Part shown: positions 10,583 to 57,453 of the stretch, piece by piece | Layout: each line of letters begins with the position of its first letter | How positions within the stretch are numbered: the first letter of the stretch is position 1 | Assembly: GCF_035594765.1 (NCBI RefSeq) | Contig: NC_085844.1 | Span: 46,453,923 to 46,517,922, forward strand | Source: Anolis carolinensis | Lineage: Eukaryota | Direction: 5' to 3' | Length of the DNA: 64,000 nucleotides | Position numbers and translations under genes: made by a program | The notes under the pieces: model-generated | Database searches by the model: none | What the model saw: the letters and a program-made list of their open reading frames with translations, nothing else | What the model was told of the DNA's origin: nothing

Positions 10583-13347
10583 ATATTTGAAGATAATGTT
10601 CTAAACAAATTAAAATATCCAAGTCATGAGGGACATGCTATTTAAATAGGATAGCTAACACTAGATTGAAATAATCAGGTAGCTAGCTGGTGGACAGCCA
10701 TGTCAGAGAGGAATTAATTGTAATTAATTTAATTGTTTAGCTAGTATTTTTAATCACCTATTTGAGACTGTATATTGATTTATGTGATAGTTTATACAGT
10801 GTGGTCACCTAATATTCTAAATACCACTATGTGTTACTTCTCTGTTTGAAAGACAGTGGTAGTTCTTTAAAGGCACTATAATGTTAAATGTAAAAACTTT
10901 AGAACATTATTTAAACAAATGTTAGTCAGATATATTGTGAGGACTGATATTGTGGGAAGAGACCATAGGTAGTTTGTGAAATAACTATAAACTAACAGTT
11001 TAGAAGAACTGAAACACTTCTTGCTGACTGAAAAAACTAATTTAGTTGAAAACTCTGGTTTAGTTGGATATGGTGTATCTTCTTCGGTGTCTAAAAATAA
11101 TGCACACACTAAAGAACATAACCATTCCCTTAAGTAGACAGTTCATGAAAGGTATGAGCTTTCTGAGTGTGCCTGTGTTTGCTATTATACCAAAATATTT
11201 CAGTAGTTAGGCATGTATGTCTCAAAACATGCTATTAATACTGTCAAAAATAAGAACTTTGACTTTATATACTGCCCTGTCCCTGTTTGGGATAGAGAAC
11301 AAGTTGATTCTCACAAAAACCCAGGGAAGGCAAAGAGTGGTTTTTCCACTGCTACTTTTGAGTTTGTTGCTGAGCTGATTGTTACTAAGGTCCAAGTCCA
11401 TGTGATGACAGTCCATTATTTAGTGATTACACCAAACACAATGAATATAAAAGGAAGAAATAATTGAAAGAAGAAAATAATTGGCATTTTATTTTAAAAA
11501 GCTGTATCCATTTTGCTTACTGGTTGTTTTAATATTGGGATCAAAGTTATATCTATATATGTATATAATGACTAGTATTGTACATTTTTGCACATTTGTT
11601 ACCATCTAATTCATAACAAAATATAGATAAGTAGTCAAACATTCCACTTGAACCAAGGACTTTTTTAATATACAGTAGTTCTGGGCTGATTCCTTAAGTC
11701 TTAAAACCATATTGCTAGTCTTATTATTTCCTGATTACTCTAAACTAAAATATGCTATGAACTCTTTTTCTCCCTGGGTTGTTTTAATACTTTTTATTCC
11801 CATATGCACTCACTGTATACTGTTTCAGTTATAGGGGTTGTATACCGGTGTAGCCAAGGGATATCTCTATTCCAGTTTTATTTATTCTGCAGAGTATCTT
11901 GTCCCAAGTATCCGCAATTAATAATCAGAATGTTTAATATCTTTAGAATATTAATTGCAGATACTTGGGACATGATACTCTGCAATTGGTCATTTTCAAT
12001 AAATTCTGTGCTGTCTTCTTAATCCCCTTCTTTTAAAAAGGACACATTTAGAAAAGTTGAATGTCTGCTTGTCCTTACTAAAGTTATCTGACTTTGATCA
12101 ATTTCTCCTTCTAGAGTTTTGCCTTTTTTAAAGAAATAATTTAGTTCAATATGCCTACACAGAAACAGTTGAAGTAAACATTGATTGTACTCTATTTACA
12201 TGAAACACATTTATGGAAAGCATCTTATCCTTTTGTCTGTTTAAAGTTATGCTGGAAAAAATACCTTTGTGATTTTTTTGGTAGAGAAGAGAGCATTACT
12301 TCTTTCACACACATTTTGGGGACAGTCAGTTTGGCAGCTTGTAATATTTCTTAAAAATTCAGACCATCAATAGGACAATTTCTTAATTTTTCTGGTGCTC
12401 CAGAAAATTCATTACAGTGATTCAAAATGTGACGTGTTAACTAATGGAAGCCATGAGCTATAAGTTGGGGCAAGCTGGGACCAGTTCTGACCCTTTGGTA
12501 TTTCATATAAAATTATTACGTTTATGTTCTTATGCTTGGATATACAGGCTAGTTTAATATTTCAACATGTTTCTGTGCTCAGGATATGTAAATATTGGTG
12601 AAGCCAATTAGGTTGGAATTTCACTAATGGCTGTGGCATTTAGGAATTCAGTATGCAGTTTTGAATTCCATGATAGATAGGAAGGATATAAAATTATAAA
12701 AATAATACCCATGGGATTCTTCCTACTGTAAAACCACAAATTTAAGCTCCAGTTGCCTGATGAAAAATTTCTTACAGTGACCATAAATGTTACTTTAGGA
12801 AAACAATTATCAAGTGATAATTTTATGAAAGGATGTATGTTGTAGTAAGTGAATGAAGTGAATTTCCATTAGGAAATATACATTTAAAGGGTTGAATAAA
12901 CTCAGGCAGGTGTTTTCATCTTAGTCCATATCTGAGTTTCTGTGAGGATAAATGAATTTAGTGCACTATGTGCTGATCTGAATCACTTTGAAATCCTACT
13001 TACCAAGAAACTCATTATTACATAATATTTTTTCTTGGTTTAGTCAGTTTAAACTACATTGTTGTAAGAAATTGCTTTTAATGCAATTTTATAAAATATA
13101 TGCCTTACCAGGTCATTAAAGAAATGTTCTGATAATCATATCAATCTCAAAAGTTTACAGTAGTGCTGCTCAAAATGGTGGTCTACAGACTTTGGCTGGC
13201 CTATGAGCTATTAGTTCCTATCCAATGTGAATTTTCCACAAACCGACTCATGATAATCATTTAGCACAGTTATGGTCTGGATCTCTGGAACAAAGATGGA
13301 TTGGGTGGAGAATTGACAGTTCACAGTTTGAGAAGCACTTGTTTATA

Positions 13348-13573
13348 TCCTGTTTTCCCCAAAACAAGACGTACCCTGAAAATAAGACATCATGATTTTT
13401 CAGTATTTCTGAGGATGCTCAAAATGTGATCCCTATTTCAAAAATAAGCTCTAGATATAGTTGATTTTAAAAATCAATTTGGAAAAATAAGACTGCCCCT
13501 GTAAACAAGCCCTAACACATCTTTTGGAGCAAAAATTAATATAAGACCCTGTCTTATTTTGGGGGAAACAGGG
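13348..13573. mobile_element. Tc1/mariner MITE
   Basis: TIRs CCTGTTTTCCCCAAAACAAGAC / GTCTTATTTTGGGGGAAACAGGG flanked by TA. Confidence 0.75.
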
Positions 13574-16500
13574 TAGGATGTATTGTATATGGAATAGTGG
13601 TATACATATGTTCTCATTTCATATCATTCGGTTGTTTAAAAAGAGTGAGCAGTCAAATACACTTGCAAACCTTTCTGTATATTCATGTCTTATCATAGCA
13701 AGTTTTCAGTAATTTACCTGGGAAGTAAACCAGAGGGCTTGGATTATAGTTTTCCTTCTGAAAAATAGCTAAAATGTTAACAGAATAATGCTTTCGTCTT
13801 GCCCTCTGCAGCACTCTTTGCCCTGTGAAAATATACTTGTGGGAAAGAGTTTGGGAATGGCCTGGGATATAGTGCATAGAACAACTGGTAATGTTTTCCT
13901 CTTATGTGAACATAAGGTCCACTTTAAGATCTAGTAAATAGCACGATATCTAGTTGCTCTACATTTCAGTCTTTTCTGTAAAGAGAAAATATGCATTACA
14001 AAATATACCTCCTTTAAATCCCTTATCACAAATGAAATTGTTCATCTTAAATTAGTCAAAAAATGTGTTGGTGGTAGTACCTAAAAAGCAGACACATTTA
14101 AATTTAACTTAGTATAGCTCACCCTCAAATCCATATTAATGCTGCCTGGAAACAAAGAGGTGATCTTTTAGTTAAAAGTTTATGTTAATGAGCTATATGG
14201 TTATTCATATTCCAGAAACATTTCAGTACTTGAAGAAATGCTGTATAATCACTATGTGTCCATTATCAGCAATATTTGAACTGAAACATTCACAGGAAAG
14301 CTAGATTGGTGATATCTCTGGTACCTGTATATGAACTCATATAATTTTTAAATTAAGTTAAATAACATTAATCTGTTACAGATTATTCATTTGCATTTCT
14401 GGCACATTCTGTAGCCCATACTGTTTTGAACTAAGACCATCTGAGACTGTGTTTTAAATGGCCATTTATATTCTGCAAAGCAGTCTCTACTAATTTTATC
14501 ATCTAATCATTACCTTGCTTCATATATATTGAAATTACCTCCCAGTCTGGCCAGTGCAATATAGTGATCAATGGGATACATAGCCTTATCAGTAACCAAG
14601 CAAGCACAAATAGGAGCATTTGAACATTTCATTATCTTAAATTACAATGTAGCATGCTGCTAGTATCTGATGAAAACAGCTGCCAAAATAAGAATTAAAT
14701 TAACACAATCCACAGATTAGTGTGTTCCAATTGGTAAGCAGACGGTTGGGTTGATGAAATAACTCCCAAGCAATTTTGTAACTTTGTTTTTCAACAGAGC
14801 TCCAAGAAGTTGTTAAATACCATTGGCTAGTATTAATAAAGGATAAATTAGTAGATTTTGAAATTATTATATCCTTTGAAAATCTGCAAATCTAGTGCAT
14901 GACATACAGAATTCTACAAAACAATACATTTTAGTGGTTGCAACTATCTACTCTGTAATGTAGATTATTTGAAATAATCAAGGTAGTAAATTGTAATACG
15001 ATAGTAGAAATTGGTAGGAGAATTCTGTGATATACAAAGCATTTTAACAGGAATCAGATGCTCTGCCATTCTTTCTGTGCTCTGATATGACTATACCATT
15101 TCCATAAAGCATTGCAATGCAATTCGTAAGATGTAAATTAGTTGCTAATTATTTTATTGTGCTAGCTTCTATTCAAAATTGTGATAGTAAAAATGTAAAG
15201 AGACAATTAACATTACAATAAAAATCCAAAAACAATTTCAGGAAATAAATCAGAAGGCACATTCTCTCATACACATTCATTCTTTCTCTCCCTCTTTCTC
15301 ACACACACACAGAGTTTTCAGCGGCATATCTGATAACATATCAATTTACTGAAAAATTGTGTTTTCAAACTTCAGAATCCAATTAGGAGGATGGTGAGCC
15401 TATTTTTCCACTGTAGGTCAACTTCAGAATGTATTATGGAACAGTAGGGAGCCCTCCAAAGTTGGTTGTCAGGTAGCACAAAGGGGTGAAGAGTAGAAGA
15501 GGAGAAGATAACTGTGTCACAGTAGTATCAGTTAATGTGATACTGGAAGCAAGCTACATCCATTTTTGAATGCTAAGATAGCAGAAGCCAACTATACGTG
15601 TCCTGAAAGGGATTTCCACAGAGGAGGGATTGCTTTTTGAAAGCCCTGTGTAAACCAATATAAGAAATCTTCTATATGGGCTCATGTGACTTAGGTATCA
15701 ATGCCACCCTCATGGCACAGGCATGTTCATAAGTGGCCTTTCAAATAAAGTGGCCCTTAAACTCTTTGGGATTTTAAAGGTTGAGACCAGCACTTTGACT
15801 CAGAAATTCACAGTTGACATGTGGAACAGGAGTGGAAAAAAGTGATATATTCACTTTATGTCCTACCCCCCAGCTTGGGAAGCTCAAGCTGTGCACGGAA
15901 GTGATGTCTCCCAATGCTATGCGTTTGTTCACTCTCTGCATTTCTGTGACTAAAAAGAGATATGAATCCTTTAGTGTCCTAGTCTAACACTTAATACACT
16001 ACACCCTGGTGACTTGTTGCTTTGCAGTAGTCTGGTTTTAATTACTGCAAGGTCCTACATCATGCATGTTAGCTTAAACATTTGAGAAAAAAGTTTTTAT
16101 TCTCATATCTTTTTATCTTTCTACATCAGTTTAAATAATTTCCAGGGTTATTAGTATCATTTAGTATTATATCTGTTTGTGACTGAACTGAACTACTTGT
16201 TCATGTAAATCTCTCTTCTTACCTATTCCTTTTATATAATCCAATCTTCTACATGATTCATTGGAAGAAGGTTCGATCAAATTAAATAAGATTTAATGTG
16301 TTGTCGAAGGCTTAAGATTTGCTCCCATGTTCCCAAGCTAAACACTGCTTTAATTTGATAGTTGACAACCACACCTTAATTTCTGGCTGAGTACTAAAGT
16401 TGTGTGACTGGTTCTTATTTTCATGAAAAATACAGCAAAAATGAATAATGGGGAACTGAAGTTTTAGTTTGGATCTGAGAATTCTTTTGTATGAGTAAAA

Positions 16501-17193
16501 GGAACTTCTCAGCTAATGTTAATGATTCTTCTTCCTACTTCAGTATCATTTTAAATGCTGTTATGAATGAGCAGGGTTTTTTTGGGTTTTGCAGGAGAGC
16601 AGTGAGATAGGAAGCTCCATTATCCAGATTCTGTCATTTTTATTGGGCTTCCTTCTTAAACCTAAGTTATGTTTTTCCTCTATACAACACAATATGACCT
16701 GATGAGTGAAAAAAGAGCAGGGAGTAATGGAGGGATTGCAATAGTTTGGAGAGAACAGAACTCAGGAATAAAAGTCAGAATTCAAGCCATTTAAAGTTTG
16801 TTGTATGGTTTTTGCAATAGGTTTTTTCCATGCTAAGGACTTGTACTCCAATAGCTTATATTTCTAAACTTTAAGAAAAATAAACTTGAACTTGTTGTGC
16901 ATTTTTATCAAATAATTCTTTAATCTTTAATGTCATTTTTCACAGAGCATTCTTAGTGACTCTTCTAAAATAAATCACACCTTTTACACTATCTGAGGTT
17001 CTTCTTTGAATCATTAACACTCATGTAAATTTCAATACGAAATACCATCTATTATGAAATATCTATGCTTGCTATGTCCCAGTTATCATTGTGTTGAAGC
17101 CTTGGGCACTGTACTTTATTTCAATCTTTTATATATGAAGGGACCACCTTCAAAAATACAGTTTGCTTATATTCTAAAAGCAATGATGGAAGT

Positions 17194-17412
17194 TGTGTTG
17201 TCGAAGGCTTTCATGGCCGGAATCACAGGGTGGTTGTATGTTTTCCAGGCTGTATGGCCATGTTCCAGAAGTATTCTCTCCTGACATTTCGCCCACATCT
17301 ATGGCAGGCATCCTCAGAGGTTGTGAGGATGCCTGCCATAGATGTGGGCGAAATGTCAGGAGAGAATACTTCTGGAACATGGCCATACAGCCCAGAAAAC
17401 ATACAACCACCA
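17194..17412 (-). mobile_element. Penelope-like (Poseidon-type) pLTR insertion with inverted copy
   Basis: 88-bp inverted arms 17229-17316 and 17324-17411; terminal tail TGTGTTGTCGAAGGCTTTCATGGCC; 12-bp TSD AATGATGGAAGT at 17182 and 17413. Confidence 0.85.
17280..17320 (-). ncRNA. Minimal hammerhead ribozyme motif (variant GAAAUGUC)
   Basis: Minus strand CCU-CUGAGGA-U-GCCUGC(CAUAGAU)GUGGGC-GAAAU-GUC-AGG. Confidence 0.6.
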
Positions 17413-18329
17413 AATGATGGAAGTCTCTTCTTCTATCAAAAGGATTAGGCTAACTGGCACTTAAGTCAAACCACAAACATTCAGGTGTGCACTGCTAAAG
17501 TACTCCTGGAAATCTCTGCTTGACCTTGAAAGATTTTGCTATTCCCCAAAGAGTGTGTTCTACTGTCAAACAGCTCAGACTGTTATGTTTTTCTTTTATT
17601 TGGATCCATTGATTCATTTCCTTGTCCCTTCAGTTGGTTAAAGATGGATATCATACTTCATGGGCCTTTTGCCATCCTATAGATGTGTTCCAACCACATA
17701 ACCTGCACAACTTTCTAAAGTATAAAAGCATTTCCATTCTGCCAGTCCTTCATGGTGGAGAAATCTGTGTTACACACTTTTGTATGTATTATGTGTTTTC
17801 AGGTAGTAGCAAGATAACCACATACATTCTTTTTTACATTAAAAAATTACAGAGATAAATGCATTTATGAATGAAAGCAAATACAGTTATTGTGGAAGTA
17901 TCAGTTACGATAAATGTTGTAGACCCACAAGCACTGTTTCTTGTCTAACAATCTACATCACAAAGTCTTGTCTAATCGGTATAATTTGGTGGTGGGTACA
18001 AAATTATATTTGTGCCAAATGTATTCAGTAAACCTTCCAAGAATAACATGCTAGAGGAGAAAGCAGGTATTGACAGGATTCACCTTTGCTAATATTCAGA
18101 TCATCATATCTTTAAGGAGCAGATATTTTCTGAGAAAACCTCTTCTTACATTTAAATGTGAAAATGTAATGCAGTTATGTGTAAGAAAAAAATCAAAGCG
18201 CTTGCCATAATGAAGAAAGGAAGAGTCATAAACCAGTTTTGTGGGGTGGTTTTTGTTTTTTGGTTTGGGGTTTGTTTTTTTGTATTCTGTTTTTGGAATC
18301 TTTTGCTCAAAAAAAGTTCAAAAAAATGA

Positions 18330-19465
18330 AATAATAGCTACTCTGCAGAGAATATCAGTAATAAAAATAATGAAATCCTAGACAAGTTTGGAAGTGGTCA
18401 ACTATTTGCTTTCTTGACTGACAATTCAAATAATATGAAAGCAGCATGGGGCATCATAATGGATAACTATCCAGATCTTACTGCAATAGGATGTGTTTCA
18501 CATGGCGTAAATCTGTTTCCTAATGATTTTTATGAAGTTGGGCATGATGAAAAAGATCTACAGAAGGGCAAATAAAATTAAAACTGACATTTCATTCATA
18601 CTGGAGTTGAAATACATAAGAAGAAGAAAAATGAGAATAATAAAATTTTAACACTCACTTTGTGGTAAAATTAAATGTAATGATGTAATCGCATTTGAAA
18701 ATTTACGAAAAAGTTATTCAAGAAACAAAATTTGAAAATTTTCCATAATTATAAGGAATATCTTTTGAAGATACACTTTGTGGATTCAGCCACAAAATTC
18801 CTTGAACCATTTCACAGAACATTTCTCCAGCAGTATCTAAATCTGAATGCAATGGTGATCAGACATGCTTCACCTTATTGTCCATATGGAATAAGTAGAA
18901 CATTTCACACACACACACACACACACACACATTTTTGAGTAAAACTGGTTTACTCATGAATTTTAAATGGTTAAACAAATCCCCATGAGTGTCCACTGAA
19001 GTTTATCTATCTTGAGTGTCCACTGAAGTTTATCGATGGAGCCTGATTTCTAAATTATTTTGCATTATGGACCTATTCTTCATGATTCACTAAAAAAAGT
19101 TTCAACCCCCACTCCCACCAAAAAAAATTCTAGCTATGGCTGTGTTGCCAGCAATTCAGGCAGCTGCGCTCATTTTAGGTCCAAGGCTCATTAGTATGCA
19201 TTATTGATAGAAGCATTGCTTCTAGATTTGACTGGACAGGCAAACAAATGATGCATTTGGGACAGTATTGGAAAGGTATATTCCAATGTTGCAGAATATA
19301 GAACTTCTTCAAGAATCTAATTCAGAACTACAATCTGGAACTTGGTTAATCATATTCTTTCTGCAACATGATGGCAATTGCCTCTGCAACTCTAGTTGCT
19401 CTGTAAGCAAGTATGAAAGAAATTGGACAACCTTTTCTGAAATGCAATCCAGTAATATGATGTGA
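18330..19465 (+). pseudogene. Decayed hAT transposase (DUF659-type catalytic region plus C-terminal dimerisation domain)
   Basis: Frame from 18330 reads EILDKFGSGQLFAFLTDNSNNMKAAWGIIMDNYPDLTAIGCVSHGVNLF (TDNxxNM and CxxH motifs); ORF 19268-19465 contains SCSVSKYERNWTTFS. Confidence 0.75.
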
Positions 19466-19487
19466 AAGAGTGCAGAGGTTTGTTTCA

Positions 19488-19637
19488 GGCCCTTTCCACA
19501 CAGCTGAATAAAACCCCACATTATCTGCTTTGAACTGGAATATATAGCAGTGTGGACTCAGATAACCCAGTTCAAAGCAGATATTGCGGGATTTTCTGCC
19601 TTGATATTCTGGGTTATATGAATGTGTGGAAGGACCC
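19488..19637. mobile_element. PIF/Harbinger-like MITE
   Basis: TIR GGCCCTTTCCACAC / GTGTGGAAGGACCC; 3-bp TSD TCA. Confidence 0.7.
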
Positions 19638-20856
19638 TCAGTTCATGCAGCCTTTGTTTTTTGAAGATAAAAATGAAGGCCCCTCTGGCTAGTATTTTAA
19701 AAGATATAACTATTGTTAGATTGCCACAATTTTTCTTTGTGATTAATATGACATACACTCTTTATAATGATAATACAATATTGAGGTGATCAGTACTTTT
19801 GGCATTGTTAAAAATTATGTCCAAATAATGAAAGGTTCCTACTTATTATAGTTTCTGTTGTCACGTTTTCCTGTTTCTTTGATGACAAAAAATAAGATAC
19901 ATGTGGAATACAAGGTGTAACAATTTTCAGCTTTCTGTTGAATATGTTATATTCACATTTTTTTCCTTATAAAAACATGATTTTGCATTTTTTTACATTT
20001 CAAAAAATATATGAAATAGCACAATATATTAAAATAGGAATTAAATATTTCATATTGCCAAAACAGTAAAATGAAATTAAATTTTAATCTATAGGTGCCA
20101 CACCACTTGTTTTCCACACCAGTATCTTAAATTTCAGAATTGACGCTTATATTTATTTTTCATAATTCCACAGTATGATATCATGGCACCATTTCCAGAA
20201 GCTCCTTGTGAAGAATTTGATATTACATCCAAGTGCTGAAGATCAAGTATGATATTGTCTTTACCAGAAGCTTCCTTTATTAAAAGTATTAGTTTCACTT
20301 GATTTGCAGCTTATGGGCTGACTTAGTTTGTAATCTGTAGCAAGAGAAGATGGAAGTTTTTAGTCAAATATCAATGTGCTGAGTCAAAAATGTAGGGAGC
20401 GCAATTTGAGATAGCTTACTGCCTAAACCACACAGACATTAAGTCAGGCACCATAACATACATTTTCCTTTTCCATTTCAGCTACAATGGGTCTAATATG
20501 GGAGAAGAAGTGGATATAAAATAATGAATGAATGAAAAAATAATAATGTGAGTGAATTTGTGGACACTTAAATTAACTTCTCTCTAAAACTGGTGGGAGT
20601 GAGGTGGGTGGAATGGAGGGAGAATCCTAGAATAACTGACATAAATAGATATGAAAGTAAACTGTGTGACTTTCCTGATGTTGTTGGACTGAAGCTTCTA
20701 GGAGGCCTAGCTAGCATAGTCAATGTTGAAAAACATTAGGACTCCAACATTTAGTAAATGTCATGTCCTTTTAAAATGTATCTGAACCTGAATTTACAGT
20801 CATGCATAATATCTTGTATCTGTTTAATGAATTGTAGTCTATTTAATAGTTCTGAT

Positions 20857-21154
20857 TAGAGATGGGAAGGCCTGGAAAAAATGAGGGGAGGAGGGAACAG
20901 TTTTTTCCCATTTTTTTCCAAAGCCATTTTTTCCCAAAATAATTGGGTAGGGTGGAATTGTGTAGAAACAGAAGGTCTCAGAAATCTTTCATTAATGTCT
21001 TCATGTTATATTGTTTGAATACCATGTCATAGATAAATTTTATATCATTGGAAAATATTTTTCTGGAAAAAAAATGGCCTTGGAAAAAAACACAGGGAAA
21101 AAACTGTTTTTTCCCTCCAATTTTCCAGGTTTTTTCCAGGTCTTCTCATTTCTA
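20857..21154. mobile_element. hAT MITE with Ac-like TAGAGATG TIR
   Basis: TAGAGATGGGAAGGCCTGGAAAAA / TTTTTCCAGGTCTTCTCATTTCTA; TSD GTTCTGAT/GTTTTGAT. Confidence 0.75.
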
Positions 21155-21775
21155 GTTTTGATAACATGGTCATTGATTTTATTAACCTTGAAAACATGGA
21201 ATTCATATGTGCTTCTTTTATACAATAGGTCATGAAGTTAAATTTTGAAAATAGAATGGAATGAATCTCCTGTAACTCCCAACATACTGCTAGATGAGAG
21301 GAATCTACTCACTGAGGACAATTTACCCAGTAAAGGTCATCAAACAGGAATTCCATAATAAACTGTTGTATTTGTTGTGGGGAGGGATACAGCACAGCTG
21401 TGGTTCACATTATGTTATTGGTTGTCATTTTTTACTTCATACTAAAACTCTGTAAAAAATCTGTTGACCTCACCAAAAAAATAATAATCTGGAATTATAA
21501 AGATACAATAAAATCTGTTAATCTAAAACCTTCAAGTGTAATGCTAATTCAGTCATTCCACTTTCTGCTTAAACTGTAGTTTATTATTCTGGATTTTTTA
21601 CCTTGCCTACTATTCCTTATACACTCTTTCTCTGTGTGCCATAGATCATAAAAACAATGACTAAACAATTAGACTTGGCACTAGAGTACATATTATACTA
21701 AGCATGTTTCCCCCAGAAAGTCATGTACTTCAAAGAATGACTGGGGGAGCCAGTAAAAATAACATTAGGTAAGTA

Positions 21776-22109
21776 AAGTGTTCCCTCACTTATCACAAAA
21801 GTTACGTTCCAGGACCACCCGCAAAAAGTGAACATCCACAAAGTAGGGACGCTATATTTATTTTAATATTTATACTTTATATACAAATATTTGCTGCCTG
21901 GCTAACTTCCAACATGCTTCTTTGCAGCTCCTCCTTGCCATCTGCTTCGAGGGAGGAGGAGGAGGGGCTTGGACGGTCTCAGCAGAGCCTCTGCCTCTGC
22001 CATTTCTGTGTGAAGGAGAGGGAGAACGGTTGCGGGGGGGAGGGGAGAGTAAAAACCACGAAACAGCGAGTCCATGAAAAGCAAACCGTGAAGTAGCGAG
22101 GGAACACTG
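21776..22109. mobile_element. Tigger/pogo-like MITE
   Basis: TIR AAGTGTTCCCTCACT / AGCGAGGGAACACTG with TA flanks. Confidence 0.7.
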
Positions 22110-22878
22110 TATTCTGAATCTAGCATTTTTCCATTAAGGGATTACTCTTGAAAGTAGATTATGATTTTTTAATATAAACTGTTTTGATCTCCTGAGCTGA
22201 ATACCAGTTTCAGAGACTGGTGAGGGTGACTGACAACTAAAGATTTCTGCCTTGTATAGAATAGAAATGGACATATAGATATATTAAATCAGGGAACAAT
22301 TTTAACAAGCTGTAAACTATAGTAAATAACATCAATGCCAGGGGGGTTGGATGGGTCTTTGCCACGTTCCATGGTGTTTACCTTCATTTTCATGTACTGC
22401 CAAAAATTCCCTGTATCAACTTATACATAACATTACTTATCTGCTCTCCCTTCTCTTTCTTTCTACTGTAAACCATCCAGAATCTACTGTAAACCGTCCA
22501 GAATCATTTTCTGATCGAATCATTAGATATGACAGTGGGTACTCTGTTGGACTGAAAAATGATTAGCCATTTTAATAAAAACTTCAAATAGGTAAAATGC
22601 TCAAAAATATGAGTACAATAGATTCTCAGATAACCAGCATCCATAAGGATGTAATTTTTGGTTACTTGAGAGTTACTATTAAAAATATGCCTAATTTATA
22701 CTGTAACCCATTCTACACTGTGCCATAAACTCCTTATTGACTTGATGTTAATATTGAAACACAGCAATTAAATTTACATGTCTACTAAAATTGATTTTAT
22801 TTAAAGTATTATTTCTTTAAATTTTTTGCCAGTTAGGAGTTTTGGCTGCTTAAGTTTCAGTTAACTGAGAGTCTGCTG

Positions 22879-23264
22879 CAGGGGTCCCCAAACTAAGGCC
22901 CGGGGGCCGGATGCCGCCCTCCAAGGTCATTTACTTGACCTCTGCCCTCAGTTTTAGACTTAAGCTCACCTAAGCCTAATGACTTGAAGGCACTCAACAA
23001 CAACCATTTAATTAACTTGACTATCTCATTGGCCAGAAGCAGGCCCACACTTCCCATTGAAATCCTGATAGGTTTATATTAGTTAAAATTGTATTTTTAA
23101 ATATTGTATTGTTCTTTCATTGCTTTTTTTTTTGCACTACAAATAAGACATGTGCAATCTGCATAGGAATTTGTTCGTATTTTTTTTTCAAATTATAATT
23201 CGGCCCCGCAACAGTCTGAAGGATTCTGGACCAGTCCTCTGCTTAAAAAGTTTGAGGACCCCTG
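22879..23264. mobile_element. Non-autonomous hAT, OC1/OposCharlie1-like
   Basis: TIR CAGGGGTCCCCAAACT / AGTTTGAGGACCCCTG; TSD GTCTGCTG/GTCTACTG; subfamily name from recall. Confidence 0.75.
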
Positions 23265-24261
23265 GTCTACTGTATTGTGAATGTCTTCAGTCACACTTGA
23301 ATTCCTAGGGCAAAATGATCAATTCCATGCAATTACACATAAGGAAATGATATGGAGCTATATTTCATACAAAATCAGCAGGGCTGAAGTGGCTGGTTTG
23401 TCGAAAAGGTAAAGGGAAGTCTCCTCTCTGTCCTGTTGTTTGTAGGTGTCTCTGGAATTCATCCTCATCCTCCAGTACCACAATCTATTCAATTCATCAA
23501 TTTTTGCTAAGCTGTATTTTCCAAGAGTTAAAGACTCCCTTAGAATCATAAAGCTGGAAGAGACCTCATGGGCCATCCAGTCCAATCCCCTGCAAAGAAG
23601 CAGGAAACTTGTATTCAAAGCACCCCCGGCAGATGGGCATCCAACCTCTGTTTAAAAGCCTCCACCAAGGAGCCTCCACCACACTCCAGGGCAGTGAGTT
23701 CCACTGCTGAACAGCTCTCACAGGAAGTTCTTCCTAATGTTCAGGTGGAATCTCTTTTCCTGTAGTTTGCAGCCATTGTACCACATTGTCTCCAGAGCAG
23801 CAAAAAACAAGCTTGCTCCATCTTTCCTATGACTTTTCCTCACATATTGATGCATGGCTATCATGTCTCCTCTCAGTCTTCTCTTCTGCAGGCCAAACAT
23901 GGCCAGCTCTTTAAAGCTGCTCCTCATAGGGCTTGTTCTCCAGACCCTTGATCATTTTAGTTGCCCTCCTCTGGACACATTCCAACTTGTCATCTTCTCC
24001 CTTAAATTGTGATGCCCAGAATTGGACACAGTATTCCAGATGTGGTCTGACCAAGGTGGAATAGAGGGGTAGCATGACTTCCCTGGGCCTAAACACTACT
24101 ATTTATGCAGGCTAAAATCCCATTGGCTTTTTTTAGCCATCGCATGACATTGTTGGCTCATGTTTAACTTGTTGTCTACAAGGACTCCAATATCTTTTTC
24201 ACACATACTGTTATTGAGCCAGGCAGCCCCCCTTATGTATTTTTCTGTGTGCATTTCATTT

Positions 24262-24480
24262 TTGTATGTCTTTCGGGCTGTGTGGCCATGTTCCAGAAAT
24301 ATTCTCTCCTGACGTTTCGCCCACATCTATGGCAGGCATCCTCATCCTCACAACCTCTGAGGATGCCTGCCATAGATGTGGGCGAAACGTCAGGAGAGAA
24401 TATTTCTGGAACATGGCCACACAGCCCGAAAGACATACAACAACCCTGTGATCCCGGCCATGAAAGCCTTCGACAACACA
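24262..24480 (+). mobile_element. Penelope-like pLTR insertion with inverted copy
   Basis: ~82-bp inverted arms; 34-nt tail 24447-24480; TSD CATTTCATTTTT at 24252 and 24479. Confidence 0.85.
24354..24394 (+). ncRNA. Minimal type-I hammerhead ribozyme, intact core
   Basis: CCU-CUGAGGA-U-stem II-GAAAC-GUC^AGG; stem I CCU/AGG; palindromic ACGU stem III; predicted cleavage after 24391. Confidence 0.7.
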
Positions 24481-25246
24481 TTTCATTTTTTCTGCCTAGG
24501 GGGAGTATGACCTTGAGGGGTAATTGGTAGGCAACGTGTTTCCAGCTATTCTGTTGTACATGCTCAAATCTGGATTCAGGTAGAAGAGAAGTAAGACTAT
24601 CTCACTACCATGGTTAAAAGATAAGTTGCTACCTCCACTGTCACCTAGTTGTAGCTGTTTCATGAGAAGAGGAACACGGCTATTCCAGTGCAACTACTGA
24701 GATGTATTGGTAATGATAAAAACATTTAAAAGGAGTTATGCTGTTGTCTCACTTATTCTTTTTCTTTTGCATGTCATGTAAATGGGTAGGCAGGGACTTT
24801 TGTAAGTTATAGTGGGAGCACTTTTGATGGAAGTGTGAGGCTATAATTAACCTTTTTCTTGATATTACTGAATGAATTAAATACCTTTTTTCAACTACAT
24901 GCAAATATTTGCTTATATCTGAAAAAGTGCAAAACCTAGAAAAAGCTAGCTTTTTCATTGCTATGTACAATATATCGGGTGGTAGTAATGTTAATTACAT
25001 CCATTTCATTTCCAGCTTCTAACACAATGAAATGGAAAAATCAAAGGCAAAATCTGTCAAGGCACTGTATATCCATATTTGATTTTGACTTAACATATCT
25101 GAATATGCAGTTGTACTTTTCTTTAAAATGGAGTAACCTAACTCACCATTACAATAAGAATGAAGATCAGATAGTGTACAAGCAGAAGTGATCTGGACAT
25201 TGATTGTGATTATACTAACCATACGTATAACGATGTGCTTCATATT

Positions 25247-25619
25247 CTTGTTGTCCTCGTGGACAACAAGTTAAATATGAGCCTACAATGTGATGCGGCT
25301 GCTTAAAAGCCAACGGGATTCTGGCCTGCATAAATAGGGATATAGCATCTAGATCCAGGGAAGTCATGCTCCCCCTCTAGTCTGCCTTGGTCAGACCACA
25401 CCTGAAATACTGTGTCCAATTCTGGGCACCGCAATTGAAGGGAGATGTTGACAAGCTGGAAAGCATCCAGAGGAGGGCAACTAAAATGATCAAGGGTCTG
25501 GAGAACAAGCCCTATGAGGAGCGGCTTAAAGAACTAGGCATTTCCTGCTTCTTGGCAGGGGGTTGGACTGGATGGCCCATGAGGTCTCTTCCAACTCTAC
25601 TATTCTATGATTCTATGAT
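25247..25619 (+). mobile_element. Internally deleted CR1 3' fragment
   Basis: [15 protein letters not shown]...ERLKELG joined directly to the CR1 3'UTR and (ATTCTATG)n tail. Confidence 0.85.
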
Positions 25620-27855
25620 ATTCAGTTAAATTGGACTACAGAAGATGTCCCAAGTGAGACTTTCAAAGTGGACTGTATCTTTACACCCCTGACAATTTGA
25701 TAGCAATTTATATTTGTAGAGAAACAAAATGCAAACAATCTGTTTTCCTCAAAATATTACGTTTCTCCCCATGAGAAAAACTATAGATAGCAAATGTATA
25801 TTTTTGTGATTTTCAGCTTCTAACTTTAGCAGGTTGCACCAGTCCCAGAACTTCTGGGAAGCAATTTTGACATAGTATACTGGGCTATTATTCACATTTG
25901 AGTGGGGTTTTTTTTCTAGGTCTCTTTCCTATGAAAACTGGAATTTGAGTTATAACATTTTGTGAAGTCTTGGGCCATGGCAGTGTAGTCCTGAGTGCTT
26001 GCTGTAAAAATAGTGTTGGTTAAAGTATTTCTACCTTTACCTGTGTATGCTATAGCAATCCTTCCCTCTTCTGTGACTTGATGCTGATTAAAAAGAATTA
26101 TTTTTAAATGACACCATTATTTCATCCTAATTTCCTAAGACCTGAAACCATTCTTTTCTTGTTTCTTGTTTAGGGGTAGCTCTTTTTATACATGTTCTCT
26201 TAAACAATGGAGAGCTAAGAGTAAGAAGACAAAATTCTGGAAATTCTACAGCTGTCTTAACTATGCTACTCCTGAAAGTTTTCTCATTTTTAATAACACA
26301 CACACCAATCAGAACTTAACGACATAACATAAATAACCATGCATTTATATATTTGGATATATTTTTGTATATATTTATCTAAAATGTAGTGCGTATAATA
26401 CTCAGCTAGGGCTATTTTATGTGCAAAATAATGACAAACAGTCTTACAGCCATGTATTGATTTCCATTACTACAGGGCATGAAGATCTGTCTTTCAAAAT
26501 AGAACAGATTGCTTCTCAAATGTAGTGCAAACAGGATCTGATAGTCTTTGCACATCTTTACTAATAAATAATGTTGCTGCATGATTGGTTTGAATGTTTT
26601 CCAAATATGTTTGCTTTCCTCTGAATGATAAAAAGTCATAAAAAGCAAGTTAAGAAGTTCTAAAATAACAGCAGCACATTTTGCCCGCTATATCTAGTAG
26701 CTACTTTCTTTCTCATTAGTAATTATACAATATAATTATCAAGTTTCATATCTCCTTTCTACATTTAAATACCTACACCTACTTTCATAGGGAAAGTGAT
26801 TTGTCACTATGCTCTTTTCATTGCACATGCTTAGATACAAATAGAGTGGTGACAATGCACTATGTGAGAATTACTGGTTTTTAACATTTCTTAAGATTAC
26901 ATTCCAACAATGGATCGCTAACTGCCACTGTACACTAAATTGATTTTGAGTGACTCTTTCACTTTGACTGTAAAATCTTAAAGCTAATTTGAAATATTTC
27001 ACTACTGACTATGAAAAATGTGGCCATACAGTCTGAAGAATTATTAGTCCATTTAAAGGTGTTCTGGGGTCTGATACATTTCAGAGATAGCTCAAATACA
27101 GGATCTGTTCAATTGTGGTTCCCATTCTCTGGAATTTTCTTCTTAGGGGAATTTGACAGCCTCCCCTTGTTGCTGCTGCTGTTATTGTATCTCTATTAAT
27201 AGGCAAAGACTTTATATGTGCAGATTTGCACTGAAATTATTATCTTAGATACTTAGTTTGGGGAGAGGTTTTCATAGCTCTCCAACTGTCAGCACGTAGT
27301 ATTAGCCTGGATTCAGTGGTTTTCTGGTTAAGGTTATAACTATTTTAAAGTGTCTGTTCTTTGTTTAACTATTAAGGCTTGTCCTACCTTTAAAGGGCTT
27401 CTTGTGATAAAATGCAGTTAGTATGCTGCATTGTCATTTTGATCTTCCTCACATTTTTCCTCTCTGGCCCTTTGTTGTGATAATTTTGCAGACTTCTCTT
27501 CTGTTGGGAAATATACCAATTTAAGGTCTTCCGTTTTTTTCAGCCAGTCCAGTGCAGAAGAGAATGGCTGAATAAGGAGGAAACTGACTGTCTCAATTTT
27601 GACAAAAATTGCTATTTTGCCAGCAAAATTCTATAATTTGATTCTAGCCACAAAAGTCAAATTACTCTTACTTTCATGTCTGTTGAATATGTAGAAAACA
27701 ATCATCTAGCTCAGCATGCTATTATGCAGGTTAAGGCTTTCACTGTGTATTATGAGATCATTGCACTGTTGAAGAATATTCATAAGTATTGGGTTCATTT
27801 ATTGTGCTGTGCAGGCTAATTTTTAACCATGAGAAAAAGGGCATCCGAAGTGCTA

Positions 27856-28274
27856 CCCTGTTTCCCCTAAAATAAGACATCCCCAGGAAATAAGACCTAG
27901 TAGAGGTTTTACTGAATTGCTAAATATAAGGCCTCCCCCAAAAGTAAGACCTAGCAAAGTTTTTGTTTGGAAGCATGCCCGTCGAACAGAACACCGGAGC
28001 ATGCAGGTTCACTAAATGTACGTACCATAGAGTGTTGTACATGAAAATAATTGTAGTAACAAGAAATTCTTGATAGGAATCACAGTTTGTCTGGTTATGC
28101 TGGTTTGTGATGACAACTACTGTACAGTATATAATAAATGTTCATTTTTTTGTTCAACAATAAATGTGAATTCTTCTTCATGGAAAAATAAGACATCCCC
28201 TGAATATAAGACCTAGCACATCTTTGGGAGCAAAAATTAATATAAGACACTGTCTTATTTTCGGGGAAACACGG
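27856..28274. mobile_element. Tc1/mariner MITE
   Basis: TIR CCCTGTTTCCCCTAAAATAAGACA / TGTCTTATTTTCGGGGAAACACGG; TA TSD. Confidence 0.85.
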
Positions 28275-29275
28275 TAATTAAGACAGCTAAACTTTACAAA
28301 ATACTTTTGTAAATGGTTTTCTGATGTGTCTGAAACAATGTTTGCGCTGCAATATCATTCTCCATGTTGTAGCTTGGTATAAAAACTGATTTTCATGTCT
28401 TAAAATATTTTGAATTATGCAATGATTAAAATCTGGACTGACCACAATCTAGATGTGCTGAGGTAATTGCTGCAATTCAGATTCATGAATTAGAGATTAC
28501 AGACCTAGCTTAGTTATACACTACTCTACATGGCTGTCCATTGTCCTTTACAAAATTGTAAGTCCCCCCCCCCCCTTTTACAGATTTGATATGCACGGAG
28601 ATAAGGGAATTAGCTTTCCTTGTTTGCTGGTTTTTGTTTCAACGCAAACCCAACACACTGTCTCAAATATGTTTGAACTTCATCCTCAAGGTTGGCTTAT
28701 AATATAGATATTGCATGTTGTAAATATTTTATGTTAAATATTTTGCTTAGTGGTTGTGTTAAGTAATTGAAAGTTAAATAATAAGCTCCTATGCATAGAC
28801 TGCTGTCCTAGTTCTGTAGGGCCAGGGTACATCCATGTGTAGAGCAAAGCAAAGAAATGAGACATGAAGAAGTGCAATAGAAAACTAACGGGAGGCAATT
28901 ATTTCATTCTTCTTTCCTCTCAACTAATGTCACCACCTAAGTATTTTTCTGGCATAAGGTATAACTTAGTCTTACATGCAGAACTGTTTTGAATGAAATC
29001 AGTCTGTTGAAGGCTAGATATATGAGTGTATGCAGATGAAAAGTGTACTGTTGGTCAAGACTGAACCAAGAGCAAGGGAAGAGTACATTTGCTTTCTTCT
29101 TGTGGCTTGCTACATTTATAACATTTTGTATAGAGTCGATGCACCTTATTCAATTACTTGTGTTGACTACAGTTATACCATAACAAGTTTGAGCATGGTG
29201 TATTTCTTTCCATTTGGCATCTACCTTTCTGAAGTTAACTTACTAATGTCTAGTCCCTTTTCCTTTGTTTTTCAG

Positions 29276-29379: not shown

Positions 29380-32379
29380 GTGTGCACTGAACAGAGGCTA
29401 CCATAAATCTGTTTTGAGTATGAACACCTTTTAAAATGGTATAAATATATATATATATATAATATTGTTTTTATAATATAGCTTTAAATATTGTTTCTGA
29501 TGTACTGTTCATCCTACAGTTGTGAAAGAACCAACATGAATAATAACAGTAATAATCGTAATATGCTGAAGCTGAAAATGGGCATTCTTACTCAGTTTTT
29601 TTTCAGCTGGTCTTTGAGAAGTGTAATATTTGAGCATCAATGTTAAAATATTGTCTGCATTGCTCAGCCTGTACATCCACACTTCAGTTAGATATACTTG
29701 ATACCTAGAATTACATACTAGGAAATTGTTTACTTAAAAAGCATCTTAAGAGTAACAGAATAAAGATTTTAAATGGTTGGTCTTTAAAGGACTTATGCAG
29801 TATTCTGCATGCATGCCAAGACTTTTCTAATCCTGCTTTTCTGACGCAGCCCCTTGTGTATCTTCCACTATCTCCCTTAACAAAAAATAACAATTGGCTC
29901 TAGAAGGTCAGGACATTTTCTGGAGCAGCATCCAATCTGGAGAGATCAGTTGCCTCCTTATTCCTTTGGATACTGCTTACAGAAACTTTAATTAAGAAAG
30001 GACATATCTATAATTACTTTACACATGCCATTGTAATGAATTCAGAATTAATGTTCCTTTAAAATGTTGTTTCTCTACATTTTTTGAACTTTATTTAAAG
30101 TAATGGTAAAATCATTGAAAATTTTATTCTTGGCTTTCATAACTGAGTAGGTGCAATCACAATAAGCTTATATATTACAATATGAGTCTACAGCTCACTG
30201 GATTAGATCCAGGCATGCCCTTTAGTGGGGAAAGTTCCTGTTCAGAGTAGAAATGAGGACCCAGAAGAGATTTCCCACTGGATAAAGGAAGCAGACTGAA
30301 GTCTCTTACGTTCTTTCCTTACATTCTGGATGGGCCCCTAAGTCTTCCCAGCACAGAGCTCCACAGGGAAGGGGCAATTGTTTGGATCTAATCCAGGGTG
30401 AATTCACATTAAATTCAAAGGGAGGGAGGAGCAGTGATTTTTAAAAAAAGGAATACTGAAATGTGACGCCCTTCTCCACCTCCCTCAGCAATGTTTTCCT
30501 GCCTGTGTTCTAAGACTTTAACTGAAGTTCTGAAGATCTTTCCCATCACATTTTTTCCAATTATCGCACAGAAAAGATAAAAAATATTTCTGCAACAAAG
30601 ATAAGAAATCTTTCAAACTATCAGGTTCAGCTACATAACAGAAAAATAGAACCTCTAGAAGTAGTTAAGACTGCAACTGCTAGCATCTTTCAGATTTAAC
30701 TGTGCTTGCTAGGGCTATTAGAACATCTAGAGCACCGCAGATTCCCAGCCTGTTCTAAAAGCTTACCAGCAACCCCCCCACCCCACCCCCAAACATTATG
30801 ACTGTGAGTATTAAGAAACGGGTTTTGAAAATATTTTGGCCAAGTTTATCAACTATTGTGGCAAAATAAAACTGCCATAAATTCATAACTATACCTTCTT
30901 TTACAGTGCTTGAAGATGGTCTTAACTAAAGAAGCAGTAAGCACTGTAAGCTGTTTAATTGTCCCTTCTTTCCTGACCCATTTATACATTTCTGTAAATA
31001 CCTTTTGCATTTAATTATTCTTTCTGCACTAACTCACAGGTTTTGCATTGTATTTTCTTATAGTGGTCCACAATATTTGTCTATACATGTTTTTGCTCCT
31101 CAGCTTAGTTTTGCATCTTTTCTTATTTCTTCCTGAATACACTTTATTGTTTTCCATAGAAAATAAGGGAGGCAATAAGTTAAATCTATTCCATATTCAT
31201 TTATGTTTGACTTGTGATTAATTTATTTGATTGTTAATTGGGAGAAGAAATAGATGTAATACTTTTGAGTTACTGTACTCTAGTTTAGTGAAAACCATTT
31301 CCATTTATGCCACAACAAATATGCAGTTATTATTTGTTTGTTGTGAAAGATTCAGATCAGGGCCTAAACTCTTGTTAAGATCAGATGCATGGATTCAATA
31401 GAAATTAGTTAAGTCAGCCTTTATGTACATTATGTACATTCCATTGATTCAGTAGATATACTTATAGTTCGGACTAACAGTTGAATTTAGGACTAGCCTT
31501 TCAGGATTAATCATATTTTTGATATTAAAGATAAGCTGTATAAATTGATGTCAAACTGATGTTTTCTACTCATGCTACTCATGAAAAACCTATCACCATG
31601 CAGCTCCAAGGTTTTCCAGCTTTCCCTAGAGGGCCCACAATGTCTCTAGAATATGAAATATGTTGGGGAGACAAGTAATTGGTATCTCCATATTCTACTG
31701 AAAGATATTATCTAGAGACAAAGATCCTTACTAGATTCCTTCCAAAAGCAATAATACTAGTTAGTATGCAGATTAACCTGCATAATAAAGATAACTAACC
31801 CAAGAGAAAAATGTGAACAATCTTGCCCTGTTCAGTTAATTACGATCTTACGATGTAGATCATTTAGGAAAAAATAAAAATAATAACACCAAATGAAAAA
31901 AAAAATCTTGAGCACTGAGGAAGAAAAAAATGGGGGAATAATCTCAACAACAAGAACAACAATAATAATAACTATTTATAGACCGCCCTCTCTCCTCAAG
32001 GGGACTCAGGCGGTTTAATCATAACTAGAACTTTTACATGTTTATTTTTTCAGATCATAGATTTGATTTTATTAGAATCTATTTTTGTCTTCTAAAATCT
32101 GGAAAATCTGAAGCGCCCTGCGCAATTGTTTATGAGGATGTATGCAGCCATTCACTTTGGGAAGGGGAAGATAAATCTTGTTATGGCACTTTCTTTGCTT
32201 ATGCTTGTCTTTTCTCACAAACTGCATCTGTCTATTACATACTGAGCTTTGAATCTGTTTCCTTAATAGTTTCTTTGGCCTTGATATTTGTGGTCCCATC
32301 TTGAATTTTATACTCAAAATCCTATAGTGGCAGGTAAAAAAAGGACATGCTCACGGGTTTCTAAAACAATAATTACATA

Positions 32380-32549
32380 GGGTTGTTGTATGTCTTTCGG
32401 GCTGTGTGGCCATGTTCCAGAAGCATTCTCTCCTGACGTTTCGCCCACATCTATGGCAGGCATCCTCAGAGGTTGTGAGGTATATATATGTATGCCGAAA
32501 GACATACAACAACCCTGTGATCCCGGCCATGAAAGCCTTCGACAACACA
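32380..32549. mobile_element. Penelope-like insertion (inverted pLTR plus short tailed end)
   Basis: 14-bp TSD ACAATAATTACATA at 32366 and 32547; same family as 17194 and 24262. Confidence 0.85.
32432..32472 (-). ncRNA. Minimal hammerhead ribozyme motif, intact, antisense to PLAG1
   Basis: Reverse complement CCUCUGAGGAUGCCUGCCAUAGAUGUGGGCGAAACGUCAGG. Confidence 0.65.
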
Positions 32550-50686: not shown

Positions 50687-51866
50687 CCAACAAGCTATTC
50701 TTTTCCAATCCAATTATCACAGAGACAGAAAGTGAGGTAAAATCTTCTGAACAGGGGCACAGCAAGACAACAAAACATCACAGGAGAATTAACTTTCCTA
50801 TGCTATCCAAAGCATTGCTGGAGTTACACTTCGAAATGCACCTGTTCCAACTTACAAATTCAAAAACAAACCTACAGAACCTATCTTGTTTGTAACACGG
50901 GAGCTGCCTGTACTAATAACTGACCTTGCTTAGCTTCCAGGATCAAATAGAATCTGTTGACTTTAGGTATTAAGGCAACTTGCTTGATTGATATATGTTG
51001 CAATTATTTATGTACTACACTAGCAGTAAACTGCACTGATGTACAGATATTTCCCCGCAAGCACAAGTGTGAAACATCCAGCTGAAAGAATAAAATCCTC
51101 ATAACACTAAAGTATCCAAAGCAAAGCAGTTCAAGGATATACTGAAGATATTAAGAGGGACGAGAAATGTGGAATGTCCATCAACCAGAAATTTTGGAGT
51201 GCACAGCAGGCATTGATATCTGCTGAGGTTTGGTTCAGGATTATCGCCATCATCCCTGCCCCCTTGATATCAAAATTCATGACTGCTCAAGTCTCATTAT
51301 ATAAGTATAAAATGGTGTAATAAAATATTTCTAATATAAAATGGCAAAATAAAGGTTAGTTCTGGGGTGTGGGAGACAACTGTAAGCCTCATGGAAGCAC
51401 AAATTACTTTGAGCAGTAATTTCTTGATATTACTTTATGAAAACCAGACTGTTTAATATATTATTTTCTTGCCATCAAAATGTGGTTTGCACCAGGGGCC
51501 ACATCTACAATGTAGAATTAAGGCAGTTTGGCATCACTTCAACTATTTTGGCTCAGTGCTGTGGAATCATGGGAACTGTAGTTTGGTGAAGCACCAGCAC
51601 TCTTTGGCAGAGAAGGCCAAAGGTCCTACAAAACTACAACTCCCATGATTCCAGAGAATAAGAATTTTATTTCTTACCCACCTCGAGGATTGAGCCATGT
51701 TAAAGGGGTGCCAGACCTCATTAATTATACAGTGTAGAGATGCATCATGAGATTAAACTGTTGTTTTTATTTTGATTTGTAAATGCACTCTTATAAGCAA
51801 TCACACCCTTTCCAAAAAACAAAAAGAAGGGTGGTTAGCTCCTATGAGTGAAGGGATCTTGTAGCA

Positions 51867-52214
51867 ATGTGTTGTCAAAGGCTTTCATGGCCAGAATCAC
51901 TGGGTTGCTGTGGTTTTCTGGGCTGTATGGCCATGTCGGGAGGCATTTTTTCCTGACGTTTTGCCTGCATCTATGGCAGGCATCCTCTGAGTTAATGAGG
52001 TATGCTGGAAACTAGCCAGGTGGGGTTTATATATCTGTGGAATGTTCAGGGTGGGAGAAAAAAACTCTTGTCTGAGGCAAGTGTGAAAGCTGCACCTGGC
52101 CACCTTGATTAGCACTGAATAGCTTTTCAGTTTCAAGGTCTGGCTGCTTACTGCCTGGGGGAAAGAATGCTTCTGGAACATGGCCATACAGCCCAGAAAA
52201 CTCACAGCCACCCA
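51867..52214 (-). mobile_element. Older Penelope-like insertion with inverted 5' piece and degenerate hammerhead
   Basis: TSD GATCTTGTAGCA at 51855 and 52215; same tail as the other copies. Confidence 0.8.
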
Positions 52215-53122: not shown

Positions 53123-53738
53123 GTGAGAGAGTGAGAAAGTCATAGACAGAGGGAGAGGGGGAGGGAGAGAGCCAATGAGGGAAGCGCCCAGGGACGGCCG
53201 TTGCTTTGAAACGTTCTAAAAGGGCTTCGAAGGGGGGGGGGGGGGTTGTTGTACCGGTTGGTTTCGCCCACTCCAACTCTTCCCCCCCCCCGCCCACCAC
53301 CATTACCTTTTCCAATTTTGCGCGCGTGCGCTCTTACGTCGCTTCCCTTCTCTAAAGGGGAAACTCTTTGTAGGATTGTGCCATGTAATTCATAAAAAGG
53401 GGGCAGGGGTGGAGCGCGCCTTCCCTGCCTTCGCATTTCTCAGTATCCCGGCTCTTTACAAGACTGTACCATCTGGCTGAGGGGGGAAAGGGAGGGGCGT
53501 GGCTTTTCTCTTTTCAACTCCCAGAATGATTCAGTCGTCCTGGGAGAAACTGGATTTAAATGTAACATAATGAATAAATATATATAAAACAAAGGATTCC
53601 CCCCCCCCCGCAGGAAGCAGCCAGGCTTTGAAGCTGCAAGGCCATTCAGTGCTAATCCAGGTGGCCAGTTGCAGCATTCACACTTGCCTCCAACAAACAA
53701 GAGTTCTTTCTCCCACCCTGGGCATTATTCCACAGATA

Positions 53739-56026: not shown

Positions 56027-56131
<105 letters not shown>

Positions 56132-57171: not shown

Positions 57172-57453
<282 letters not shown>

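What the first reader, a model, noticed from the sequence alone, without database searches (positions are those of the whole stretch)
24262..24480. Hammerhead ribozyme inside a Penelope palindrome, sense in PLAG1 pre-mRNA but locked by its own antisense arm
Seen: 24354-24394 has every core element of a minimal type-I hammerhead (stem I CCU/AGG, CUGAGGA plus an extra U, stem II, GAAAC, GUC^ cleavage triplet, palindromic ACGU stem III). The motif recurs at 17280 (-), 32432 (-), 54099 (+) and, decayed, at 51952 (-). Established: Penelope-like elements carry such minimal hammerheads, which cleave as dimers, so the motif class is not new. Inference: the upstream ~82-nt inverted arm should pair over the catalytic core and silence it in the PLAG1 transcript. 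Fold-back insertion would then be a built-in off-switch that lets ribozyme-bearing copies persist in the sense orientation in introns.
Basis: partly seen in the sequence, partly recalled or inferred. Interest (0 to 1): 0.7.

Follow-up and report, generated by a model that had tools for sequence, protein, structure and literature searches.

The report
Known lizard retrotransposon stub, locked ribozyme
This palindrome is a short leftover of a known anole jumping gene (Poseidon). Its self-cutting RNA motif is identical to one already shown not to cut without the element's protein, and the mirror arm that is predicted to lock it is likely a by-product of how the element inserts, not an evolved off-switch.

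Summary
24354-24394 is letter for letter the hammerhead of Poseidon_Ac (PAc), which did not cleave without PAc protein in vitro (PMC11167929). The 86-bp arm is predicted to bury it (70.7 kcal/mol), but a native 5' hairpin already hides the core (8-9.5 kcal/mol).

The palindrome is one insertion in a 12-bp target duplication. The genome holds 15,896 exact cores and 4,333 tight head-to-head junction matches. In 71 of 73 classifiable pairs one arm ends at each of the two published RT start sites, which points to priming from both cut strands.

The off-switch reading fails in its strong form. An intact-core, armless, sense copy sits in RPS20 intron 1. In 1.71 Mb of gene bodies, intact cores were armed in 3 of 5 sense and 4 of 6 antisense cases. 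A weaker form is not excluded: counting decayed copies, unarmed ones were 7 sense to 21 antisense. That bias follows the unpaired 35-nt tail (14 sense, 34 antisense; post hoc) and is equally present in armed copies.

The scan reached the two-ended reading before, in this genome and others. Ordinary, with one side lead.

The parts
24252..24263 (+). left target-site duplication CATTTCATTTTT; its last 2 bases overlap the start of the arm
24262..24344 (-). inverted arm: second copy of the Poseidon 5' region, ending near the proximal RT start site; lacks C3, so no complete hammerhead on the - strand
24345..24357 (+). head-to-head junction (13-nt loop); CCTCA at 24346-24350 can also pair with TGAGG of the core (native 5' hairpin)
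24354..24394 (+). minimal type-I hammerhead, identical to the PAc hammerhead; predicted cut after 24391
24363..24480 (+). first 118 nt of the Poseidon ORF (ATG at 24363); 24346-24480 is 133/135 identical to a genomic copy with an 846-aa RT plus GIY-YIG frame
24447..24480 (+). unpaired 'tail' between the two RT start sites
24479..24490 (+). right target-site duplication; its first bases overlap the end of the tail
17194..17418 (-). sister palindrome, antisense to PLAG1, also armed (95-nt arms, 7-nt loop, 12-bp duplication); U.G at 15.2-16.2
32376..32549 (-). asymmetric pair: intact hammerhead on the - arm; the tailed + arm is only 55 nt and does not cover the core
53585..54185 (+). armless, tail-less copy with an intact core (54099), sense in RPS20 intron 1 (53124-56028), 12-bp duplication, interrupted by a later repeat
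51866..52214 (-). older, decayed copy upstream of RPS20 with a short inverted arm
3975..29275 (+). inferred first intron of PLAG1, which holds the element
   Evidence: gene name recalled

Best explanation
The palindrome is one dead, 5'-truncated insertion of the anole Poseidon (PAc) retrotransposon, likely made when both strands of the cut target primed reverse transcription, one at the tail site and one about 35 nt upstream, and the two short cDNAs were joined head to head; its hammerhead is a passenger predicted to be inactive in the PLAG1 transcript with or without the arm. Shown: family identity, the target duplication, arm geometry, copy numbers and the one-end-at-each-site rule. Published: two RT start sites, extension of both strands, no cleavage without protein. 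Inferred: two primings in vivo; cDNAs running to an RNA 5' end just upstream of the hammerhead (TATA-like box 34 nt before it, initiator-like CCATACC); joining by microhomology; locking of the RNA; neutrality of the copy.
For: Right arm 133/135 identical to a copy with an 846-aa ORF carrying RVT_1 (E 2e-13), YVDD and a GIY-YIG-like motif. The ribozyme matches the tested PAc RNA printed in PMC11167929 (compared by eye). 71 of 73 classifiable tight pairs (81 distinct; 8 with one unclassifiable end) have one proximal and one tailed end; in the unbiased tiles alone 20 of 22. The arm reaching further 5' is proximal-ended in 35 and tailed in 26. Junctions are highly varied (100 of 4,333 rows seen), which argues for independent events. 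In the first 140 tiles, 20 of 103 5' ends fall in the 9 bases at the predicted start and 3 in the 24 bases upstream. Partner arms agree at 570/714 common variable sites against 58% for non-partners, and share 19 rare variants against 0.85 expected, so both come from one source lineage; 153 rare variants are unshared, so there is little later homogenisation. Without any arm the hammerhead fold costs 8.3-9.5 kcal/mol. RPS20 intron 1 counterexample. Intact cores: 3/5 sense and 4/6 antisense armed.
Against: Unarmed copies spanning the motif are 7 sense to 21 antisense (p 0.013), while solo copies not spanning it are 7 to 7; that is what selection against exposed hammerheads predicts. The intact-core sample is only 11. 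Exact cores are fewer in the tiles than the genome average (6 against 14.7 expected, 3 in each orientation). No RNA evidence of the transcript or of cleavage was obtained. The RNA start is inferred; a 3' splice site in the same place is a rival. Shared variants show one source locus, not one RNA molecule.
Confidence: 0.8

Rival explanations
1. One reading: exposed sense hammerheads harm host pre-mRNAs (for example when PAc protein is present in the germ line), and the inverted arm masks them, so armed copies persist in sense.
For: Arm locking predicted at 70.7 kcal/mol. Element-level arming 22/29 sense against 22/43 antisense, p 0.049; unarmed 7:21; tail-less unarmed copies still 5:10, not significant. 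PAc protein does switch the ribozyme on in vitro.
Against: 18 of the armed elements span the motif on both strands and count on both sides, so any antisense excess among solo copies creates the association. There is no effect among intact cores. Armed pairs, which should be neutral, are themselves biased (tail antisense 21:9, p 0.043), as much as solo copies (13:5; Fisher p 1.0). Armless copy in RPS20 intron 1. Stubs lack ORF bases 119-172. No RNA-seq ends at the cut site in PMC11167929.
Confidence: 0.1
2. The palindrome arose by fold-back: one cDNA self-primed at the CCTCA/TGAGG inverted repeat and copied itself (self-priming was proposed in PMC3846280).
For: 573 exact copies turn at that 5-bp repeat; the arms share source variants.
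Against: In over half of the pairs the arm without the loop carries the tail that the loop arm lacks. Many junctions keep both arms complete or hold filler bases.
Confidence: 0.06
3. A MITE-like palindromic unit that is amplified as a whole.
For: Thousands of short palindromes with target duplications.
Against: Junctions, arm lengths and the tailed side differ from copy to copy; the sequence is the 5' end of a full Penelope ORF.
Confidence: 0.04

Closest known systems
Poseidon_Ac / PAc of Anolis carolinensis (Frangieh et al. 2024, PMC11167929; parts 1-3 of 4 read, supplement 2 gave only panel labels)
   Same: Identical hammerhead, ATG at the start of stem II, cut 26 nt after the start codon, ends at the two RT start sites, AT-rich target.
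   Different: A 118-nt ORF stub with an inverted partner. The text read does not model the palindromes or test orientation in introns; the supplementary figures could not be seen and may bear on this.
min-HHRs of Penelope-like elements (Cervera and de la Pena 2014, PMC4209133; parts 1-2 of 4 read)
   Same: Extra base between 9 and 10.1, G10.1-C11.1, palindromic 15.2-16.2, no loop 3; single motifs inactive and dimers weak; opposite-strand pairs 100-700 bp apart already noted in Schistosoma.
   Different: Stem I is only 3 bp here, and a native 5' hairpin competes with the core; I did not see that described in the parts read.
Inverted pLTR plus one-sided tail of EN+ PLEs (PMC3846280, PMC8557442, PMC2377424; passages only)
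   Same: Head-to-head inverted 5'-truncated copy, palindromic junction, 30-40 bp tail on one end, target duplication.
   Different: PMC3846280 reads the palindromes as self-priming; the counts here favour two primers.
L1 twin priming (recalled)
   Same: Both nicks prime, giving a 5' inversion in one target duplication; 32376-32549 looks like this.
   Different: Here the two cDNAs usually copy the same 90 or so bases, which gives a palindrome.

Membership tests
Poseidon_Ac (Penelope/Poseidon clade PLE) | sequence identity to the PAc pLTR/ORF start | tested here: met
   133/135 to L267, whose 5' region matches the RNA printed in PMC11167929 (by eye)
Poseidon_Ac (Penelope/Poseidon clade PLE) | family encodes one ORF with RT and C-terminal GIY-YIG endonuclease | tested here: met
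   L267: 846 aa, RVT_1 at 374-543; GIY-YIG-like motif at 700 found by pattern only, no Pfam GIY-YIG hit. The window copy keeps 39 codons.
Poseidon_Ac (Penelope/Poseidon clade PLE) | inverted 5'-truncated partner, one-sided tail and target duplication | tested here: met
minimal type-I PLE hammerhead | core C3 U4 G5 A6 G8 A9, G12 A13 A14 A15.1, U16.1 H17; extra base before G10.1-C11.1; palindromic ACGU | tested here: met
minimal type-I PLE hammerhead | match to a curated Rfam hammerhead model | tested here: not met
   no hammerhead family among 63 matches at E<=5; this is not a defining feature of the minimal class, whose stem III has no loop
minimal type-I PLE hammerhead | self-cleavage (as a dimer or with protein) | not testable with these tools
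   published for the identical motif: cleavage only with PAc protein; co-folding two copies did not give the active dimer as the lowest-energy fold
selected antisense off-switch | arm sequesters the core | tested here: met
   folding prediction only, 70.7 kcal/mol
selected antisense off-switch | intact sense-intronic cores are armed more often than antisense ones | tested here: inconclusive
   intact 3/5 against 4/6, p 1.0; core bases present 7/10 against 6/13, p 0.40; all spanning elements 22/29 against 22/43, p 0.049
selected antisense off-switch | armless intact sense copies are absent from essential introns | tested here: not met
   54099 in RPS20 intron 1; L251 and L252 in a laminin-G gene (L251 lies 233 nt from the tile edge on its 5' side, so an arm could be missed)

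The most novel reading that the evidence does not exclude
PAc protein cuts host pre-mRNAs at exposed sense hammerheads in the germ line, and head-to-head insertion masks them, so two-ended priming doubles as a built-in silencer that has shaped where tens of thousands of ribozyme copies survive.
Probability: 0.1. Interest if true: 0.6.

Novelty: already known. Interest (0 to 1): 0.2.

Why it matters
As a locus it matters little: it is one of thousands of copies of a characterised element. Two side results are usable. First, the one-end-at-each-site rule (71 of 73) ties the two in vitro RT start sites to the long-noted inverted repeats and gives a direct test with the published PAc system. Second, the tail lies antisense to the host gene in 34 of 48 tailed intronic insertions, armed or not. 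If this holds genome-wide (about 0.4, post hoc), either the first priming strand is set by host transcription or replication direction, or the tail itself is harmful in pre-mRNA. My literature searches found no paper on orientation of Penelope copies in introns; a 2026 preprint reports depletion of related retrozymes from Xenopus introns (passages).

Tried and rejected
Rfam scan: no hammerhead model matched. Sequencing runs: no holder on record as RNA, contigs only. Four runs laid on 14000-33600 were swamped by repeat contigs and showed no splice joint and no pile of ends; this says nothing for or against transcription or cleavage. Strand skew as a stand-in for gene orientation was too weak (sum 0.031, SD 0.049 per 10 kb) and was dropped. 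A tail pattern meant to give an independent orientation sample stopped at 13 Mb, short of the oriented gene at 15.6 Mb, so the tail bias has no independent replicate; in the window's PLAG1 intron it runs the other way (2 sense, 1 antisense). ABC_tran genes were found but not sampled. No pile-up of 5' ends at the hammerhead cut site (5 of 103 in 44-50), so cleaved RNA is not a main template. Other repeats gave no clear bias in the same tiles (CR1-like 21:27, others 7:7 and 53:61 hits). Lunse et al. 2017 was not held; it is cited only through PMC6765202 passages.

Full report
OBSERVATION. The motif and arm are as described. 24354-24394 holds every base of a minimal type-I hammerhead, with the cut after C24391. 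Arms 24259-24344 and 24358-24443 pair over 86 nt at 99%. The unit sits in a 12-bp duplication, 24252-24263 and 24479-24490, so it is one insertion. A pattern scan of the window found the other listed copies and one chance match at 41057. Rfam has no matching hammerhead model.

HOST CONTEXT. The + strand carries a C2H2 zinc-finger exon (34683-35936) and a kinase ORF, then a ribosomal S10/S20 gene with snoRNA U54. I name these PLAG1, MOS and RPS20 from recall. A donor at 3975 and an acceptor ending at 29275 place the element in a long 5' intron. Reads did not confirm this.

IDENTITY. The first 39 codons after ATG 24363 hit 150 scored places in the genome, nine of them in frames of 860-867 aa. 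One such copy (L267) has an 846-aa ORF with an RT domain, YVDD and a GIY-YIG-like motif and is 133/135 identical to the right arm. Its 5' region matches the PAc RNA printed in PMC11167929. That paper (parts 1-3 of 4 read) reports that both target strands are cut and extended; that RT starts at two sites flanking the 'tail'; that 172 ORF bases are the minimum RNA for the insertion reaction; that the hammerhead shows no cleavage without protein; and that no RNA-seq reads end at the cut site. Exact cores number 15,896, the 15-mer 50,644, tight head-to-head junction matches 4,333, strand-counted, and the exact CCTCA/TGAGG turn 573.

HOW THE PALINDROME FORMS. Of 81 distinct tight pairs drawn from 90 pattern-selected loci and the first 140 tiles, 71 have one proximal and one tailed end, 2 have two proximal ends and 8 have one unclassifiable end. 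The unbiased tiles alone give 20 of 22. The arm reaching further 5' is the proximal one in 35 and the tailed one in 26. A self-copy cannot add a tail that its template lacks, so two primers fit better than fold-back. Partner arms share source variants but have since diverged independently (73 pairs). In tiles, 5' ends crowd at and just after CCATACC, 34 nt behind a TATA-like box, and thin out sharply upstream. I infer that this is the RNA start and that short cDNAs run off it and join by microhomology. A polypyrimidine-AG 11 nt upstream makes a splice junction a rival, since D. virilis Penelope has an intron ending at this place and a TATA-less promoter. The inverted copy and one-sided tail are textbook PLE features.

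IS THE RIBOZYME LOCKED? Forcing the hammerhead fold costs 70.7 kcal/mol in the whole element, 8.3-9.5 without the arm because CCUCA pairs with UGAGG of the core, and 5.1-5.7 in the RPS20 copy. The native 5-bp hairpin is complete in 35 of 44 tile copies that include it. So the arm locks something already predicted to be misfolded, unable to form stem III alone, and dependent on protein. No second intact sense copy lies in the PLAG1 span to serve as a dimer partner.

IS THE ARM SELECTED? I took 174 stretches (1,714,317 bases, 37 genes) between same-strand Pfam exon hits of ion-channel, myosin and laminin-G genes (fetched). Gene limits are inferred from those hits, and isolated tiles can hide arms at their edges. 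Results by hit: intact cores armed 3/5 sense and 4/6 antisense; cores with all catalytic bases 7/10 and 6/13; all 85 spanning hits 29/35 and 29/50 (p 0.019, inflated by tandem copies). By element (68 elements): 22/29 and 22/43 (p 0.049), unarmed 7 sense to 21 antisense (p 0.013). But 18 armed elements are symmetric and count on both sides, and one-sided covered pairs are 4:4. The bias tracks the tail, which no arm covers: 14 sense to 34 antisense among 48 tailed elements of 71 (p 0.006; 5 against 17 genes, p 0.017), alike in pairs (9:21) and solos (5:13). Tail-less unarmed copies are 5:10 (p 0.30), and solos not spanning the motif are 7:7. The tail split was noticed after the counts and has no independent replicate. 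Spanning solos also usually carry the promoter and acceptor, which could be selected against for reasons unrelated to cleavage. Within the window, an antisense copy is armed (17194) and an intact-core sense copy in RPS20 intron 1 is not (54099).

VERDICT. A known element and a known, tested ribozyme. The arm is predicted to lock the RNA but is most likely a by-product of two-ended priming (0.8); a selected off-switch keeps about 0.1. Earlier scan notes on this and other genomes reached the same two-ended reading; they are unchecked AI notes, and I had written that reading down before seeing them.

Noticed in passing
tiles L061-L200, L231-L264: The Poseidon tail is antisense to the host gene in 34 of 48 tailed insertions, equally in armed and solo copies; post hoc and unreplicated.
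   Followed up: partly
L045-L047 (G000:C1:1063396-1063876); G000:C1:2664321-2664880; L057; L130: Tandem arrays of hammerhead units with periods of 220, 173, 78 and 56 nt. The first two have exact cores and could dimerise in cis like retrozymes; the L130 array is decayed and lies sense in an ion-channel intron.
   Followed up: no
window 23541-24098 and 25343-25607: An inverted pair of CR1-like fragments (188 nt at 88%, 67 nt at 91%; class recalled) encloses the palindrome, so the pre-mRNA could form nested double-stranded stems, possible editing substrates.
   Followed up: no
window 24346-24362 and L267 186-202: A native CCUCA/UGAGG hairpin hides the catalytic core in most copies and could explain the published need for PAc protein.
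   Followed up: partly
L267 152-190: TATA-like box and initiator-like CCATACC just upstream of the hammerhead, overlapping a polypyrimidine-AG; 5' ends of genomic copies crowd here.
   Followed up: partly
window 24403: Both arms share a rare T (4 of 146 arms sampled), so the variant was in the source or was copied between arms.
   Followed up: yes
window 57174-57240: snoRNA U54 in RPS20 intron 2, as expected.
   Followed up: no
G000:C1:155484855-155493222 and 78536301-78542258: Tandem and head-to-head arrays of copies with 860-867 aa open frames at about 2,666-bp spacing, so the family is young.
   Followed up: no
window 48314-48528, 52688-52837, 59667-59827, 59959-60156: Several unrelated hairpin (MITE-like) repeats that hit miRNA models below threshold.
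   Followed up: no
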